A stretch of DNA of 64,000 nt from Escherichia coli. GTDB lineage: Bacteria; Pseudomonadota; Gammaproteobacteria; Enterobacterales; Enterobacteriaceae. A program made the position numbers. Of this stretch, positions 24,001 through 30,000 are shown in pieces; the stretch's first letter is position 1; each line of letters starts with the position of its first letter. The stretch is taken from assembly GCF_003018115.1 (NCBI RefSeq), contig NZ_CP027457.1, one strand, 5' to 3'.

Positions 24001-27000
24001 ACGGTCAGTGTTACGGTTTGCCCCGCTTCTGCATTCGACGTGCCGCTCAGTACCAGCGAGGCGTTATGTTCCGCAGCACTGATAATGTTGTCCTGAGCGA
24101 TGGTGTTGATGGCAAGCGTTGGCGGTTGGGTATCGACCGTTAGTAGCTGCGCGCCGGTGACCGTATTGCCTGTGGCGTCTTTCCCACTGACCAGCACCGC
24201 CTGATTCCCTTCGCCTAACGCCTGTGCATCGGCGGTCGGCACCTGCACGCTCCAGGCACCGTTAGCGCCTACGCTGGTCGTGTAGGTTTTGCCGTTAAGT
24301 GTGACGGTGAGTTCTGTTCCCTGTGCCAGATGACTACTGGTGCCAGAAAGCGTAAACCCGGCGGCCTGTTCGCTGGCGTTAATAATGTTATCGCCTGCGG
24401 TGGTGGCAACCTGCACGCTGGCCTGACTATTGTCGATGGTTAACGTTATCGAACCGGCGTCAGTGATGGTACTGCCGACAATTTGCACCACTGACCAGGT
24501 ATGTTCACCTGCACTTTGCGTGGGTAACGAGACACTCCAGTGACCGTTGTTGTCTACCTGAGTACTGGCAATAGTATTGCCGTTACTGTCTTTAATCTGA
24601 ATAGTCGCCCCCGCCTGCCCGCTGCCGCTAAAGGTTGGCGTAGTGTCATCGGTGATGTCATTGGTGGCGAGAATGCCGCGCTGATCGCCCTGATTATCGG
24701 TAACTAAAAATGATGGTGTGGCGTTGCCAGGCTCAGCAGGTGGCGTAGGGTTATTAATCACTTCTGTTTTCGAGTCGCCATCTCCACCGCTTGCCAGCAG
24801 TGCACCAAGCGCGCCACCACCTACCGCCGCCCCCGCCAGCCACCCCCACGGGAAGGCGCTGGTCTGAGCAACGGTATCAAGAAATGGCGCAATGCTTTCA
24901 ATCGCAGTGGTCTGGGCAGTCAGTTCTACGGGGGCTAATCCACCCGCAGCAGTATCGGCAAAGGTGATATGGGTTAGCTGTTGACCATCGGCAAACACCA
25001 GTTCCGATTGTTCAGCTGTATTCGCCGCTTGCAGGAAATAACCGTTGCAGCGGATCACCGTGCCGTCCTGCATATAGATCAGCAGGTCATTTCCTTCACG
25101 GACGTAACGCGCAACGGCAGAGGCCTGAGCATGAACCTGCACCACGGAAGGCTCATAAATAACAACCGTGACGTCGCCAGGATTAATCAGCGTTTGTTTG
25201 ACGGATGTTTTACGCGAAATAACATCAATAATCAGGCTCATAATGGCATTCCTGATAAATGGCGCACATCCTTAGCGAGTCCATTTATCTAAATAAGACA
25301 AAGGTAATCACTTAACAACGAGGCATACCTGATATTAATAATGGCAGGATTATTTCAAGTCGGGTAAGTCGTTGTATAAGCCCTGTTTAATTCCCGCTAA
25401 TGGAATAAGGTTATTCACCGCAGCGGCATAATTTACGGCGGCGACCCAGCCATCATAATTGGCATTTATTTCAGCCGATTGCGCCTGAAAGACATCTTGC
25501 TCGACGGTTAATAGATCATTCAGACTGCGTTTACCCAATTTATATTCATTTTGGTACACATCTCGCGTTTTGTGCGCACTTTCGGATTGCGCTAAACCGG
25601 CTTCTTCGCGACCCCGTGCGCCGGTCCAGTTTGCATATGCCACAGACGCTCGTTGCAGCACATCCAGTTTTGCCTGTTCGACCTGCGAGGCAGAGATTTT
25701 TTGTTGCCCTTCGGCCTGTTGCACCTGGGCAGAAACCGCGCCGCCCTGATACAGCGGCGCGTTAACGTTCAGTTGTAGCTGATCATCCCAATACGAGCGG
25801 TCGCTGGTCTGGTAGCGCGTTTTACCCCCCTGAATACTGAGCGTTGGCCAGTATTGCGCTTTCGTTTTTTCCACGCCGTACTGTGCTGACTGGCGTAAGT
25901 TTTCTGCCGCCAGCACCAGCGGGATGGACTGGTAATCAATATTCTTCAGCGATACCGGCTGCTCGGCTAATTCAGCAGGTGGCGCGGCTATCGCCTCCGG
26001 CTGTACGCCAGTGAGCACCGCCAGTTGCGCTTTGGCGCTCGCCATCTGCGCCTGATATTGCTCCAGCGTTGAGCGCATTCCAGCAATACGCGTCTGGGCC
26101 TGTAATTCATCCGACGATGAGTTCAGGCCAGCGTTAGCGCGCAATGCCGCCATGTTGTAGACGTTTTCCAGCGAGTGAATATTGCGTTGAGCCGCATCGC
26201 ACAAAGCCTGATAACGACTGACTTCCATATAGGCAGTCGCCGTTTTCTCTGCAACATCGGTTAAGGTAGCCATCAATTTAAAGCGGTAGCTGTCACGGGC
26301 GGCAGTTTGCAGATTGATATCGTTGTTAGTTTTACCAAAGTCATACACCAGTTGTGTCAGGGTTATGCCATACGAAACGTTGTTATCAAGCCTGCCGCTG
26401 GAGTCCGTTTGTCGGGACGGCCCCGCGTTGCCGGTTAATCCAACGTGCGGATACCAGGCACTTTTGGCTTCATCAATTTGCGCTTCGCCAATGCCTATCT
26501 GCGCCGCCTGTTGAGTGACGTCGGGATTTCGCGCAAAGGCGCGTAATATACTTTCCTGTAAGGATAATTGGGCAACTGGCGTTACCGCTGGGGCGTTCGC
26601 CCATTGTGGCAGCGGTGCAGCAATTGCAGCTTCTCCCATCACCATAAAACTTATTAAAAAAATAAGTCCATTATTTTTACGGTTTTTAAACTGGAATCGC
26701 GCCATAGATAAGTCACTTCCTTCCAGGTCATTATTTTAACTGGTTTTTATAACCAGTCTCATTTTATTAAGAAGGGTAATAACTTGTGCATCTCTTTTGT
26801 CGATCATTGATATGGGCAAAGAAATGCAGCTAAAAAGCTTATACGTTATTTATTTAGAATACACTACGACTTTTAGATTACCATCATACACATTAAGAAT
26901 AATCCACGGTAATAAGTGATTAGCATCACAGATTTATCGCGTATATATCATTTTTTTGTGATTTATTTATTAAAGGAATAAGAAAGGTAATTTGAATTAA

Positions 27001-30000
27001 AGACAAAGGCGCAGTACAGGCAGTACTGCGCGCAGAGAGGTGTTATACGGTTTTATTGCGCTTCATGACCATTGCCACAATAAGGCTGAGTAAAATTGCA
27101 CCAATAATCCATATCAACGCACGGCTGCCCTGGGACCACAGGCTGTAGATAAAGCCAACGATCACCAACAACATCACCAACGTACCTACGATAAGAATCG
27201 GCAACGAGGCGTGAATATCATGTCGCAGGCGGATCGCCACCACAAACACCGCCAGATAGCAAATCAAAAAGGTGGCGCTGGCAACGCTGGCGAGTGAGCC
27301 TAAATTTAATGCCGCCGTCATCAGCATAATCAACACCACGACAATGATGTTGCCCCAGGTACTCTGCCGCCACAGGGATTTATTCATTAGCTTCGGCAGT
27401 TCGCGTTCGCTGCCCATGTTGTCCATGATGTTAAACACGGCGAACAGGTTCGCGTTGATGGCTGAAGCCGTCGCCAGTAAAGCGCCGATGACGACGATCA
27501 CATAACCCACATGCCCGAGCAGCGGAGAAGCTGCCTGCGCTACGGCGGTATCGGCATATTTTTCTAACTCTAATGCCGATACATCGCTAAGCAAAACCAG
27601 CGCCAGCGAGATATAAAGCAACGTGGTAACGCCAATCGCCACCAGAAACGCCCGTGGCATAATGACCTGCGGATCTTTCACTTTATCCGCCGCGTTCGCC
27701 ATCATGCCAAAGCCCGCATAGGCAAGGAAGGTTATCCCGATACAGGAGAAGAACGCACCGGAGCTGGGGGGCGCAGAGACGGAAATATGCGCCGGTTGCA
27801 GCGACCAGACACCGGCAATAATCAGCAATAACAGGATCATCATTTTAATGCCGACGAGGATCACTTCCAGCCGCCCTACCGCATGGTTGCTTAAGGAGTT
27901 GAAAAGCGTCATCACCGCAATGATCCCCAACGCGTAGAGCAAAATAAGGTGCTCCTCCTGGCTGCCTTCATGCAAAAACTGCACGGCATAAGCGCCAAAA
28001 GCACGGGCAACCATGGCGATGCTCACCGCCAGCGTCAACAGGTACAGCAACGAGAGCGCCAGCGAAAAGACGCCGTTGCCTAATCCGCGACGAAAAAAGT
28101 CGATAATACCGCCATTGCTGGGATAGCTCGCCCCCAGGCGCGCATAGGCATAACCGGAAAACATCGCCACAATACCGCCAAAAGCAAAGGCGACCCAGGT
28201 CGAGGCTTCCATTAGCAACGCAGCCTGCCCCAGCAGCGCGAAGATCCCCGCCCCCACCATTGCCCCAATACCGATGGAAACGACATTCCATAGACCGAGA
28301 GGTTTGTTACCGTTATTACCTTCCGTGTTCATCATGATCAGCCCTTAAACACGTTATAGCCGAGTTGCTTAGCGACCGATGTCACCATTTTTTGACCGCG
28401 AACACTGTTGCCTTCTTCGTCCAGCGGTGGTGAGAACGCGGCAATTCCCATCACGCCAGGGACGACCGCCAGAATACCGCCACCTACACCGCTTTTGCCC
28501 GGTAAACCAACACGATACGCCCAGTCACCGGAGCGACCATACAGCCCTTCCATCATCATTTCGGCCAGAATGTACGGCACGTTGTCGGCCTGAAGAACGC
28601 GTTTATGCGTCAACGGATTCACACCACCCGCCGCCAGCGTCGCGCCAAGCGTTGCCAGTTCAACAGTATTGATGAGCGTGGAGCACTGACGGGTGTACAC
28701 GTCACAGGCTTCCATTGCATCACAATAGAGATATCCGGCGGAGTACAGCAGCCAGGCAATGGCCCGGTTATGGAAGTTGGTTGTTTGTTCCGACTGGTTG
28801 ACTTCGTCAGAGAGCGCTACCTGCTCACCAGCCAGTTGCTGTTGGATATGTAAAATTCGCTGCCAGCGTTGTTCAACATTTTCAGCGTTAATCAGGCTGG
28901 TGGTGGCAATGGCGCCAGCATTTACCAGTGGCGAAAGCGGTTTGCCGCCATGCAACTCTAAGGCGATAACTGAGTTAAAGGGCAATCCGGTCGGGTCAGC
29001 GCCAATTTTGTCCTGTACCGCCTGCGGGCCGACATCCTCTAACGCAAGGGCTAACGTACAGACTTTCGAGATGGATTCCAGCGCAAAGCGGTAATCACTG
29101 TCACCCGCACTATAGACCTTGCCATCGCAGGTCACGATAGCCACTGCCGCCAGTTGACCAGGCACATTCGCCAGAAAGGGAATGTAGTCGGCATTTTGAC
29201 CGCCGTTAAGTGAGTGAAATTGGGTGTAAGCCTGATCCACTGCCTGCTGTAATTTGTTTGCATCTAACATCTTTTGTTAACTCCTTTTTATAGATGCGGG
29301 AGGTAATTCCTCACCCCGGTGCCGATTTTGAGGCATCCTGATTTAACTTAGCACCCGCAACTTAACTACAGGAAAACAAAGAGATAAATGTCTAATCCTG
29401 ATGCAAATTGAGCCAATTTTTTAATCTTTACGGACTTTTACTCGCCTGGTTTATTAATTTCTTGACCTTCCCCTTGCTGGAAGGTTTAACCTTTATCACA
29501 GCCAGTCAAAACTGTCTTAAAGGAGTGTTTTATGTCACAAACTATCGACCTGACCCTGGACGGCCTGTCCTGCGGTCACTGCGTTAAACGCGTGAAAGAA
29601 AGTCTCGAACAGCGCCCGGATGTGGAACAAGCGGATGTGTCTATCACTGAAGCGCACGTTACCGGGACTGCCAGTGCAGAACAGCTGATCGAAACCATCA
29701 AACAAGCGGGTTATGACGCATCTGTAAGCCACCCAAAGGCTAAACCGCTGGCGGAGTCATCAATCCCGTCGGAAGCACTGACAGCGGTTTCTGAGGCGCT
29801 TCCGGCAGCGACCGCCGATGACGATGACAGCCAGCAGTTGCTGCTGAGCGGCATGAGCTGCGCCAGCTGTGTCACCCGCGTACAAAATGCGCTGCAAAGC
29901 GTACCGGGCGTCACTCAGGCACGGGTAAACCTGGCGGAGCGTACTGCGCTGGTGATGGGCAGTGCCTCCCCACAAGATTTAGTGCAGGCGGTGGAAAAAG

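What the first reader, a model, noticed from the sequence alone, without database searches (positions are those of the whole stretch)
26706..27042. 337-bp AT-rich region upstream of the secretion operon
The spacer between the OMP gene start and the ybaT stop is conspicuously AT-rich with A/T tracts, in contrast to the GC-rich appearance of the adhesin gene. This composition is typical of H-NS-bound, xenogeneically silenced promoters, and Hha (encoded at 60600-60818 in this same window) is an H-NS co-silencer of such loci. The operon may therefore be silent under laboratory conditions.
Basis: inference. Interest (0 to 1): 0.45.

Follow-up and report, generated by a model that had tools for sequence, protein, structure and literature searches.

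The report
Known promoter region of OI-28 adhesin operon
The AT-rich spacer is real, but it is the already studied control region of the E. coli O-island 28 adhesin-secretion operon, which published data show is switched on in stationary phase rather than silent; H-NS silencing there remains plausible and untested.

Summary
Window 26706-27042 is exactly the ybaT-to-TolC-family-gene spacer. At 32.6% GC it is the most AT-rich of 24 intergenic regions in the 64-kb window.

It is not new. The window is E. coli, and the operon is O-island 28 (z0608/ecs0540 'tolC28', SiiEA adhesin, ABC transporter, MFP). The spacer differs from O157:H7 EDL933 and Sakai at 3 of 337 bases.

Published work on this region:
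- An RstA box, found here as an exact match at 26986-26999.
- Activation by PhoB.
- 55-fold dependence on RpoS.
- A Cappable-seq start site 144 nt upstream of the ATG (window 26849). It is weak in exponential phase and strong in stationary LB and M9.

"Silent under laboratory conditions" is therefore contradicted.

H-NS binding is compositionally plausible: 67% AT, a 9-fold excess of long A/T runs, and more AT-rich than the H-NS-bound hha-maa locus in the same window. I found no H-NS or Hha data for this locus. Predicted curvature is ordinary.

The island body is GC-rich (59%). It sits at the same site in two other Escherichia species, and K-12 carries a deletion scar, so "xenogeneic" fits poorly. 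hha is a core gene 34 kb away, so its presence in the window is a coincidence.

The parts
27043..28335 (-). ybaT (APC family permease), the core gene upstream of the region
   Evidence: ORF. Annotated in the closest genome. Present in 5422 of 5426 complete E. coli genomes.
26999..27031 (-). ybaT intrinsic terminator: a 9-bp GC-rich hairpin (27009-27031) followed by the tail CUUUGUCUUU
   Evidence: Terminator scan. RNA fold gives -16.6 kcal/mol, z = -4.9, and 0 of 200 shuffles fold as well.
27015..27015 (.). Right-hand end of the K-12 deletion, inside the terminator hairpin. K-12 lacks window 1226-27014.
   Evidence: In island-free genomes the match begins at query base 716, which is window 27015. 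K-12 aligns to 722-1225 and then to 27015 onward. K-12 keeps a 98-bp pseudogene remnant of the MFP gene.
26986..26999 (-). RstA box TAATTCAAATTACC, at -294 to -281 from the ATG and about -150 to -137 from the mapped start site
   Evidence: Exact match to the box that Niu et al. 2025 showed by EMSA to be needed for RstA binding, with RstA ChIP-qPCR enrichment of the region (PMC12758282). It is poorly conserved in the two other Escherichia species.
26958..26975 (-). Pho-box-like sequence CTTTAATAAATAAATCAC (13 of 18 matches). Ten bp downstream lies TGaTATATA. This is a candidate only.
   Evidence: Motif scan. PhoB activation of ecs0540-0544 is reported by Yoshida 2010, cited in PMC3978041 and PMC12846084. 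That paper is not held, so the real box could not be checked.
26931..26940 (-). GCGATAAATC, an 8 of 10 match to the H-NS high-affinity motif TCGATAAATT
   Evidence: There is one site in the region and 60 at this stringency in the whole window, so it is not enriched.
26915..26930 (.). CRP-like palindrome TGTGAtgctaaTCACt (9 of 10 core positions), centred about -73.5 from the mapped start site
   Evidence: The half-sites are conserved while the spacer varies in E. sp. E1V33 and E. whittamii. Function is inferred, not shown.
26856..26861 (-). -10 hexamer TATTCT of promoter P1. The predicted -35 TATGAT is at 26883-26888, with an over-long 21-nt spacer.
   Evidence: bTSSfinder output in the EDL933 Cappable-seq supplement. 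The same elements were predicted by BPROM in PMC12758282. The sequence is identical in the window.
26849..26849 (-). Transcription start site P1, 144 nt upstream of the ATG. Mapped from EDL933 position 579751.
   Evidence: [quoted passage not shown] Signals are 0, 4.1, 0, 2.4 in exponential phase and 64.7, 53.0, 31.3, 9.2 in stationary phase. Coordinates were transferred through a gap-free alignment.
26831..26843 (-). Minor promoter P2: -10 TATAAG (26838-26843) and start site at 26831, which is -126 from the ATG (EDL933 579769)
   Evidence: Cappable-seq, stationary M9 only. Mapped through.
26706..26849 (-). 144-nt 5' untranslated leader of tolC28
   Evidence: Follows from the mapped start site. 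Predicted fold -37.4 kcal/mol, z = -2.87. The proximal 91 nt are 93.5% identical to the two other Escherichia species, more than the flanking coding DNA at 88-89%.
26787..26828 (-). Leader hairpin 1. The stem UGCAUUUCUUU/AAAGAGAUGCA is invariant in three species. Its loop (-119 to -92) cannot be aligned.
   Evidence: No compensatory changes are available from three sequences.
26738..26758 (-). Leader hairpin 2: GACUGGUU-N5-AACCAGUU
   Evidence: -9.4 kcal/mol, z = -5.3. Substitutions in the other two species keep the pairs only as G-U on the sense strand.
26761..26790 (-). Sigma-70-like TGCACA-N18-TAAAT(T) inside the leader. The window and both other Escherichia species have TAAAAT; O157 has TAAAAC.
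   Evidence: Promoter scan, 9 of 12. The T/C difference is at 26761. No start site was mapped here in O157. Activity in this strain is unknown.
26716..26724 (-). Shine-Dalgarno GGAAGGAAG. It is predicted to pair with the upstream anti-SD ACCCUUCUU (26768-26776).
   Evidence: Consensus fold of the three Escherichia leaders. All the pairs are invariant, so this remains a prediction.
25350..26705 (-). TolC-family outer membrane protein gene (tolC28, z0608, ecs0540), first gene of the operon
1126..25241 (-). Rest of the operon: intact 6925-aa SiiEA adhesin (4464-25241), ABC transporter (2298-4460) and HlyD-family adaptor (1126-2301). The adaptor's stop overlaps the cueR start.

Best explanation
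The 337-bp AT-rich spacer is the regulatory region of the O-island 28 type I secretion and giant-adhesin operon of E. coli.

Reading along the coding (minus) strand it contains:
- the ybaT terminator;
- a distal activator zone with the published RstA box, a CRP-like site and a Pho-box-like site;
- a stationary-phase promoter whose start site lies 144 nt upstream of the ATG;
- a long, conserved and probably structured 5' leader that may mask the ribosome-binding site.

The operon is expressed conditionally. It is low in exponential growth in rich medium. It is induced on entry to stationary phase (RpoS-dependent), by phosphate limitation (PhoB) and by Ca2+ through RstA.

Shown by published experiments on a near-identical sequence: RstA binding, RpoS dependence, growth-phase induction, PhoB dependence, and the start site.

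Inferred here: the role of the CRP-like site, the leader structure, and any part played by H-NS. I put detectable H-NS binding to this patch at about 0.5. I put H-NS/Hha being the dominant control at about 0.3. If H-NS does act, the far-upstream RstA box would fit counter-silencing better than classical activation.
For: - Identity of the locus. There are 3 substitutions and no indels against EDL933 and Sakai over the spacer.
- The RstA box is an exact match at the published position.
- Start site and condition profile come from Cappable-seq.
- RpoS dependence is 55-fold with substantial wild-type expression.
- Induction at the stationary transition.
- PhoB activation is cited.
- Terminator.
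- Conservation supports function. The promoter block (-189 to -120) is 87-90% identical and the proximal leader 93.5% identical to two other Escherichia species, against 74% for the distal part.
- Long AT-rich upstream regions (28-42% GC, 200-930 bp) precede the orthologous gene in Enterobacter, Lelliottia, Budvicia, Rosenbergiella and others, at different chromosomal sites.
- Leader fold has z = -2.87 and invariant stems around a variable loop.
Against: - All the experimental evidence comes from O157:H7 strains, not from the strain in the window. Its adhesin gene is intact, and it differs at 26761 in a -10-like hexamer.
- The P1 promoter has a poor -35 with a 21-nt spacer, so how RNA polymerase is recruited is unclear.
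- The PhoB-dependent promoter of Yoshida 2010 could not be read, and my best Pho-box match is weak at 13 of 18.
- The leader structure has no compensatory substitutions.
- The RstA box is not conserved outside E. coli.
Confidence: 0.8

Rival explanations
1. One reading: H-NS, helped by Hha, coats this AT-rich promoter and is the main reason the operon is off. RstA, PhoB or sigma-S act chiefly by overcoming that silencing.
For: - The region is 67% AT over 337 bp, and the AT-rich block runs from about 26600 to 27010.
- Long A/T runs are 9-fold over expectation and TpA steps 2.8-fold.
- It is more AT-rich than the hha-maa locus of the same window, which is H-NS-bound in K-12, SE11 and SE15. Most listed unbound intergenic regions have higher GC, 43-56%.
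- The RstA box sits about 140-150 bp upstream of the start site, which is unusual for direct activation.
- Strong RpoS dependence is common among H-NS-repressed promoters (established knowledge).
- Antisense and orphan start sites occur inside the spacer in EDL933, as seen in AT-rich DNA.
- H-NS silencing of other RTX loci is documented.
Against: - I found no ChIP, EMSA or mutant data for this locus.
- The AT-rich patch is only about 0.4 kb and is embedded in 52-60% GC DNA. H-NS regions in Sakai average 1643 bp.
- Predicted intrinsic curvature is ordinary: the 120-bp end-to-end ratio is at the 13.6th percentile.
- The H-NS motif is not enriched.
- AT content near 39% does not discriminate: the copA-glsA spacer is unbound and the maa-hha spacer is bound.
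- The promoter is clearly active in ordinary stationary-phase cultures.
- hha is a core gene, so its position says nothing.
Confidence: 0.3
2. The AT-richness is a passive feature of an ordinary intergenic spacer (terminator plus promoter) and has no regulatory meaning of its own.
For: E. coli intergenic regions are generally AT-richer than genes. Other spacers in the window reach 38-39% GC.
Against: - It is the extreme of 24 spacers and lies in the lowest 0.2% of 337-bp windows.
- The promoter block and leader are conserved across species at or above coding-sequence level.
- Orthologous operons in other genera also carry long AT-rich leaders at unrelated sites.
- Specific binding and start sites have been mapped in it.
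Confidence: 0.07
3. The spacer encodes an independent small RNA or small protein rather than, or in addition to, the operon promoter.
For: - A 40-codon TTG ORF lies on the plus strand at 26797-26919.
- Orphan and antisense start sites exist at EDL933 579708 and 579617.
- The leader is structured.
Against: - There is no Rfam match even at E = 1.
- The orphan and antisense start sites are weak and confined to certain conditions.
- The ORF has a TTG start, and the unalignable segment (26797-26824) falls inside it.
Confidence: 0.05

Closest known systems
tolC28 (z0608/ecs0540) regulatory region of O-island 28 in E. coli O157:H7 (Yoshida 2010; Dong & Schellhorn 2009; Zehentner 2023 Cappable-seq; Niu 2025)
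   Same: Same locus, same flanking genes and same length, with 334 of 337 identical bases. The RstA box, the -10 hexamers and the start-site sequence are identical.
   Different: The window comes from a non-O157 strain (closest match F9792). Its adhesin is an intact 6925-aa gene, whereas O157 has an internal stop. It has T instead of C at 26761, which completes a TAAAAT hexamer inside the leader.
Salmonella SPI-4 siiA promoter, an H-NS-silenced and HilA-counter-silenced T1SS/giant-adhesin operon (from my own knowledge, not checked here)
   Same: An AT-rich regulatory region in front of a T1SS operon that exports a giant Ig-repeat adhesin. Expression is conditional and depends on activators.
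   Different: SPI-4 is an AT-rich acquired island, and H-NS binding to it has been shown. Here the island body is 59% GC and appears ancestral to the genus, and H-NS binding is untested. Gene order and activators also differ.
H-NS/HlyU-controlled RTX promoters of Vibrio (rtxA1, rtxCA)
   Same: AT-rich promoters of RTX/T1SS loci where an activator bound far upstream relieves H-NS repression (review PMC12846084).
   Different: For those promoters H-NS footprints and hns-mutant derepression exist. Nothing comparable exists for this locus.

Membership tests
OI-28 tolC28/ecs0540 regulatory region | Lies between ybaT and the TolC-family first gene of the T1SS-adhesin operon that ends at cueR | tested here: met
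OI-28 tolC28/ecs0540 regulatory region | Sequence identity with the EDL933 and Sakai spacer, including the RstA box at -294 to -281 | tested here: met
   334 of 337 identical with no indels. The box is an exact match at 26986-26999.
OI-28 tolC28/ecs0540 regulatory region | Promoter elements and the sequence around the mapped start site at -144 are present | tested here: met
   Identical from 26762 to 26896, which covers both -10 hexamers and both start sites. Activity in this strain was not measured.
H-NS-silenced (xenogeneically silenced) promoter | AT content well above the genome average over several hundred bp, with A/T runs and TpA steps | tested here: met
   32.6% GC over 337 bp. Six A/T runs of at least 8 bp against 0.67 expected. 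TpA 0.113 against 0.041.
H-NS-silenced (xenogeneically silenced) promoter | H-NS occupancy in vivo (ChIP) | not testable with these tools
   Sakai H-NS ChIP-chip data exist (E-TABM-818/819), but no table is held. The K-12, SE11, SE15 and CFT073 data sets do not report on this spacer.
H-NS-silenced (xenogeneically silenced) promoter | Derepression in hns (or hha) mutants | not testable with these tools
   No published value was found for z0608/ecs0540.
H-NS-silenced (xenogeneically silenced) promoter | Target DNA is foreign: recently acquired and AT-rich relative to the host | tested here: not met
   The island is 59.2% GC against 51.9% for the rest of the window. It has the same insertion site and core-like divergence in E. 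whittamii and E. sp. E1V33. K-12 carries a deletion remnant.
H-NS-silenced (xenogeneically silenced) promoter | High-affinity nucleation motif and/or strong intrinsic curvature | tested here: inconclusive
   One 8 of 10 motif match, not enriched. Curvature is unremarkable, at the 13.6th percentile. The wedge parameters for the curvature model were recalled from memory.
H-NS-silenced (xenogeneically silenced) promoter | Little or no expression in standard culture | tested here: not met
   Published data for the near-identical O157 sequence show a start site that is strong in stationary LB and M9 and Z0608 at log2 10.8. Expression in exponential LB is low or undetected, which is compatible with partial repression.
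Pho regulon promoter | An 18-bp Pho box (two CTGTCAT repeats 11 bp apart) about 10 bp upstream of a -10 hexamer | tested here: inconclusive
   The best matches are 13 of 18. One of them lies 10 bp upstream of TGaTATATA. The primary paper is not held.
Class I CRP-dependent promoter | TGTGA-N6-TCACA centred near -61.5, -72.5, -82.5 or -92.5 | tested here: inconclusive
   9 of 10 core positions, centre about -73.5 from P1. The half-sites are conserved in three species. There are no binding data.
Intrinsic (Rho-independent) terminator | A GC-rich hairpin followed by a U-rich tail, directly after a stop codon | tested here: met
   9-bp stem, -16.6 kcal/mol, z = -4.9, tail CUUUGUCUUU, starting 11 nt after the ybaT stop.

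The most novel reading that the evidence does not exclude
The roughly 0.4-kb AT-rich patch is a maintained H-NS nucleation site placed in front of an otherwise GC-rich, anciently inherited adhesin operon. RstA, bound 140-150 bp upstream of the start site, and PhoB would then act as counter-silencers rather than as classical activators. Sigma-S selectivity of the promoter would arise from the same H-NS complex. The conserved 144-nt leader with its anti-Shine-Dalgarno pairing would add a second, post-transcriptional gate. Orthologous operons in many Enterobacterales carry equally long AT-rich leaders at unrelated sites, so this would be a family-wide design rather than a by-product of horizontal transfer.
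Probability: 0.25. Interest if true: 0.45.

Novelty: already known. Interest (0 to 1): 0.2.

Why it matters
OI-28 has recently been reported as needed for early adherence and gut colonisation by EHEC. About 18% of complete E. coli genomes (958 of 5426) carry it. Knowing whether its promoter is H-NS/Hha-repressed would fill the one gap left in a regulatory picture that already includes PhoB, RpoS, RstA and Ca2+.

The gap is a small one. The region itself, its start site and several regulators are published. H-NS control of AT-rich virulence promoters is a familiar theme.

Two points here add some value:
- The island looks ancestral to Escherichia and deleted in K-12, not newly acquired by pathogens.
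- Non-O157 strains such as this one carry an intact 6925-aa adhesin gene.

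Tried and rejected
- Rfam scan of 25000-29600 at E up to 1: no RNA family.
- Consensus scans for PhoP, the canonical RstA box (TACATNTNGTTACA), SlyA and IHF: nothing convincing. Fis-like matches are numerous, as expected in AT-rich DNA, and I ignored them.
- Curvature model: no outstanding bend.
- Cross-genus alignment of upstream regions: there is no sequence conservation beyond Escherichia, only shared composition.
- Literature searches for H-NS or Hha data on this locus (OI-28, z0608-z0635, ecs0540-0544, EHEC ChIP-seq, hha RNA-seq): no locus-level result.
- Yoshida 2010 is not held.
- A search on the names siiCA, siiDA and siiBA returned only unrelated papers.
- The Higashi 2016 tables cover only genes conserved across strains, so they give calibration but no data on the island.
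- I considered that the first two candidate promoters from the consensus scan were the operon promoter. I rejected this as the main promoter because the mapped start sites lie further upstream.

Full report
**Observation**

The stretch 26706-27042 is exactly the non-coding spacer between the stop of ybaT (27043-28335, minus strand) and the ATG of a TolC-family outer-membrane protein gene (25350-26705, minus strand). It is 32.6% GC, against 54.8% for the window. Only 0.19% of 337-bp windows are as AT-rich. The global minimum of the 64-kb window, 28.8% GC, starts at 26644 and overlaps the region, so the AT-rich block extends about 100 bp into the gene.

The spacer ranks lowest in GC among the 24 intergenic regions between ybaA and this gene. 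It holds six all-A/T runs of at least 8 bp where 0.67 would be expected. Its TpA frequency is 2.8 times the window average. The adhesin gene is indeed GC-rich, at 60.5%.

**What the locus is**

The window is E. coli. The closest genome is strain F9792, at 99.9% identity. On the minus strand the gene order is:
- ybaT;
- the TolC-family OMP gene;
- a 6925-aa 'BapA-related adhesin SiiEA';
- an ABC transporter;
- a HlyD-family adaptor;
- cueR.

It is O-island 28 of O157:H7 (z0608-z0635 in EDL933, ECs0540-0544 in Sakai).

The island-side part of the spacer is present in 958 of 5426 complete E. coli genomes, always at 95% identity or more. ybaT is present in 5422.

In island-free genomes similarity starts at window 27015, inside the ybaT terminator hairpin. 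K-12 aligns to window 722-1225 and then jumps to 27015. It keeps a 98-bp pseudogene remnant of the adaptor gene next to cueR. The K-12 state is therefore a 25.8-kb deletion.

**Origin of the island**

A scan of species-representative genomes found the same gene at the same ybaT site in Escherichia whittamii and Escherichia sp. E1V33. Identity to the window:

| Segment | Identity to the window |
|---|---|
| ybaT | 88.5-89% |
| glsA | 88-89.5% |
| tolC28 | 83-91% |
| whole spacer | 80% |

The island has diverged about as much as the flanking core genes, so it was probably present in the common ancestor. Its body is GC-rich, 59.2% against 51.9% for the rest of the window. 'Xenogeneic, AT-rich foreign DNA' therefore does not describe the island. 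Only the roughly 0.4-kb leader is AT-rich.

Orthologous genes in Enterobacter, Lelliottia, Budvicia, Rosenbergiella, Pseudocitrobacter and others sit at unrelated chromosomal sites. They are also preceded by long (200-930 bp) AT-rich (28-42% GC) non-coding regions, with no sequence similarity to the Escherichia one. A long AT-rich leader seems to be a trait of this operon family.

**Published regulation of this exact region**

The spacer differs from EDL933 and Sakai at three positions (26962, 26897, 26761) and has no indels. Results from O157 can therefore be mapped base for base.

1. Niu et al. 2025 (PMC12758282) showed by lacZ fusions, ChIP-qPCR and EMSA that RstA binds the region. Binding requires the box TAATTCAAATTACC at -294 to -280. 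Ca2+ raises expression through RstA. The box is an exact match at 26986-26999 on the minus strand.
2. Yoshida et al. 2010 reported that PhoB activates ecs0540-0544. I could reach this only through citations, because the paper is not held.
3. Dong and Schellhorn 2009 (PMC2907692) found Z0608 to be 55-fold RpoS-dependent, with wild-type expression of log2 10.8 in stationary LB. Z0609 was 20-fold dependent.
4. Bergholz et al. [quoted passage not shown]
5. The EDL933 Cappable-seq study (PMC10469882) lists a gene-specific start site at 579751 for this gene, whose ATG is at 579895.
   - It was detected in 6 of 8 conditions.
   - Signals were 0, 4.1, 0 and 2.4 in exponential LB, M9, acid and salt.
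   - Signals were 64.7, 53.0, 31.3 and 9.2 in the stationary counterparts.
   - A minor site at 579769 appeared in stationary M9 only.

**Anatomy in window coordinates** (minus strand, upstream to downstream)

- ybaT terminator: hairpin 27009-27031, -16.6 kcal/mol, z = -4.9, followed by a U-rich tail.
- RstA box: 26986-26999.
- Pho-box-like sequence: 26958-26975, 13 of 18 matches, followed 10 bp later by TGaTATATA.
- H-NS-motif-like GCGATAAATC: 26931-26940, 8 of 10 matches, not enriched.
- CRP-like palindrome TGTGAtgctaaTCACt: 26915-26930, 9 of 10 core positions.
  - Its half-sites are conserved and its spacer varies in the two other Escherichia species.
  - Its centre is about -73.5 from the main start site.
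- Promoter P1: -10 TATTCT at 26856-26861, start site at 26849.
- Promoter P2: -10 TATAAG at 26838-26843, start site at 26831.
- A 144-nt leader, described below.

The promoter block (-189 to -120) is 87-90% identical across the three species. The proximal leader (-91 to -1) is 93.5% identical, which is higher than the neighbouring coding DNA. The distal zone is only 74% identical, and -119 to -92 cannot be aligned.

The unalignable segment is the loop of a hairpin whose 11-bp stem is invariant (26787-26828). A second hairpin lies at 26738-26758 (-9.4 kcal/mol, z = -5.3). Its substitutions preserve pairing only as G-U on the sense strand. The consensus fold also pairs ACCCUUCUU (26768-26776) with the Shine-Dalgarno sequence GGAAGGAAG (26716-26724). 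With only three sequences there are no compensatory changes, so the leader structure is a prediction.

**The H-NS/Hha interpretation**

*For.* The composition is what H-NS prefers. The window offers an internal calibration from the ChAP-seq tables of Higashi et al. 2016:
- hha, maa and the maa-hha spacer (38.6% GC) are H-NS-bound.
- ybaT, glsA, copA and the copA-glsA (39.1% GC), acrA-acrR, apt-dnaX, recR-htpG, adk-hemH and aes-gsk spacers are not.

The target, at 32.6% GC, is clearly more extreme than the bound example. The RstA box lies about 140-150 bp upstream of the start site, which suits counter-silencing better than direct recruitment of RNA polymerase. Strong sigma-S dependence is frequent at H-NS-repressed promoters (established knowledge). 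Weak antisense and orphan start sites occur inside the spacer.

*Against.*
- GC near 39% does not separate bound from unbound spacers.
- The AT-rich patch is short compared with the 1643-bp mean H-NS region in Sakai, and it is flanked by GC-rich DNA.
- Predicted curvature is ordinary (the model parameters were recalled from memory).
- The nucleation motif is not enriched.
- I found no H-NS or Hha measurement for this locus.

The H-NS ChIP-chip data for Sakai are deposited (E-TABM-818/819) and would settle binding.

hha (60600-60818) sits in its normal core context, tomB-hha-maa next to acrAB. It is present there in island-free strains such as K-12, so its presence 34 kb away carries no information.

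The prediction that the operon is silent in the laboratory is contradicted by items 3 to 5 above and by the reporter and phenotype data of Niu et al. What the data do show is low or undetectable initiation in exponential LB. That is compatible with partial repression by H-NS or with a simple need for sigma-S, CRP or PhoB.

**Conclusion**

The feature is real, but it is an already characterised regulatory region. The supporting arguments (foreignness, Hha proximity, silence) do not hold.

My estimates:
- About 0.8 that the region works as the multi-input, growth-phase-controlled promoter and leader described above.
- About 0.5 that H-NS binds detectably.
- About 0.3 that H-NS/Hha is the dominant control.

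Novelty: already known. Interest: low.

Noticed in passing
window 1226-27014; K-12 locus L002 2401-2498: K-12 lacks exactly this 25.8-kb block and keeps a 98-bp remnant of the HlyD-family adaptor gene upstream of cueR. The island is syntenic in E. whittamii and Escherichia sp. E1V33 with core-like divergence. OI-28 therefore looks ancestral and repeatedly lost, not newly acquired by pathogens as the 2025 paper suggests.
   Followed up: partly
window 4464-25241 (minus strand): The adhesin gene is one intact 6925-codon ORF here and in F9792. In O157:H7 (EDL933, Sakai, CEC13091) NCBI annotates siiEA as a pseudogene with an internal stop. The 'two RTX proteins' Z0609 and Z0615 (ECs0541 and ECs0542) appear to be the two halves of one interrupted gene.
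   Followed up: partly
window 1126-1129 and 722-1129: The cueR start codon overlaps the stop of the adaptor gene (ATGA). In island-bearing strains the copper regulator may therefore be co-transcribed or translationally coupled with the secretion operon. EDL933 Cappable-seq nevertheless lists a start site at 604687 for 'transcriptional regulator' in all eight conditions.
   Followed up: no
window 26761: The window, E. sp. E1V33 and E. whittamii have T here, which completes TGCACA-N18-TAAAAT inside the leader. O157 strains have C (TAAAAC). A proximal promoter may exist in non-O157 strains and be inactivated in O157, where no start site was mapped at this spot.
   Followed up: partly
window 26706-26849 (minus strand): The 144-nt 5' leader is more conserved than the neighbouring coding DNA. 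It is predicted to form two hairpins plus an anti-Shine-Dalgarno pairing, with GGA motifs over the SD. This suggests post-transcriptional control by an sRNA, CsrA or a thermosensor. There is no covariation support yet.
   Followed up: partly
window 26915-26930: A CRP-like site with 9 of 10 core positions. Its half-sites are conserved and its spacer varies across three Escherichia species. Its centre lies about -73.5 from the mapped start site. It would fit the reported induction when glucose runs out.
   Followed up: partly
window 26892 and 26983 (plus strand); EDL933 579708 and 579617: The EDL933 Cappable-seq lists weak orphan and antisense start sites inside the spacer that point back into ybaT. 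Spurious initiation of this kind is typical of AT-rich DNA.
   Followed up: no
L039 1748-2445 (E. coli ECNB21-M121), corresponding to about window 26746: One genome has an IS1A inserted in the leader about 40 bp upstream of the tolC28 ATG. This separates the gene from its mapped promoter.
   Followed up: partly
window 32093-32431 (ybaQ-copA spacer, 59% GC): A segment of about 137 bp matches at two places about 101 bp apart. The window carries about 100 bp more here than F9792. This is probably REP or tandem-repeat copy-number variation.
   Followed up: no
L009-L018, L030 (Enterobacter, Lelliottia), about 650-700 bp upstream of the TolC-family gene: The orthologous operons in the Enterobacter group have a conserved divergently oriented gene of about 263 codons (MLYYANYCDILQ...). 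They also have their own conserved upstream motifs (for example gatatttgtctaattatctgtacctc). This may be a dedicated regulator that Escherichia lacks.
   Followed up: no
L003 (contig assigned to a 'Collinsella sp.' MAG): A 2.3-kb contig binned as Collinsella encodes a protein 99% identical to this E. coli gene and carries a near-identical upstream sequence. This is almost certainly a binning contaminant.
   Followed up: no
window 261-700 and 59654-60198: These are the two other stretches below 38% GC over 337 bp. One lies beside the small lipoprotein-like genes downstream of cueR. The other is the 545-bp tomB-acrB spacer upstream of tomB-hha. The second adjoins the hha-maa region, which is H-NS-bound in published ChAP-seq.
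   Followed up: no
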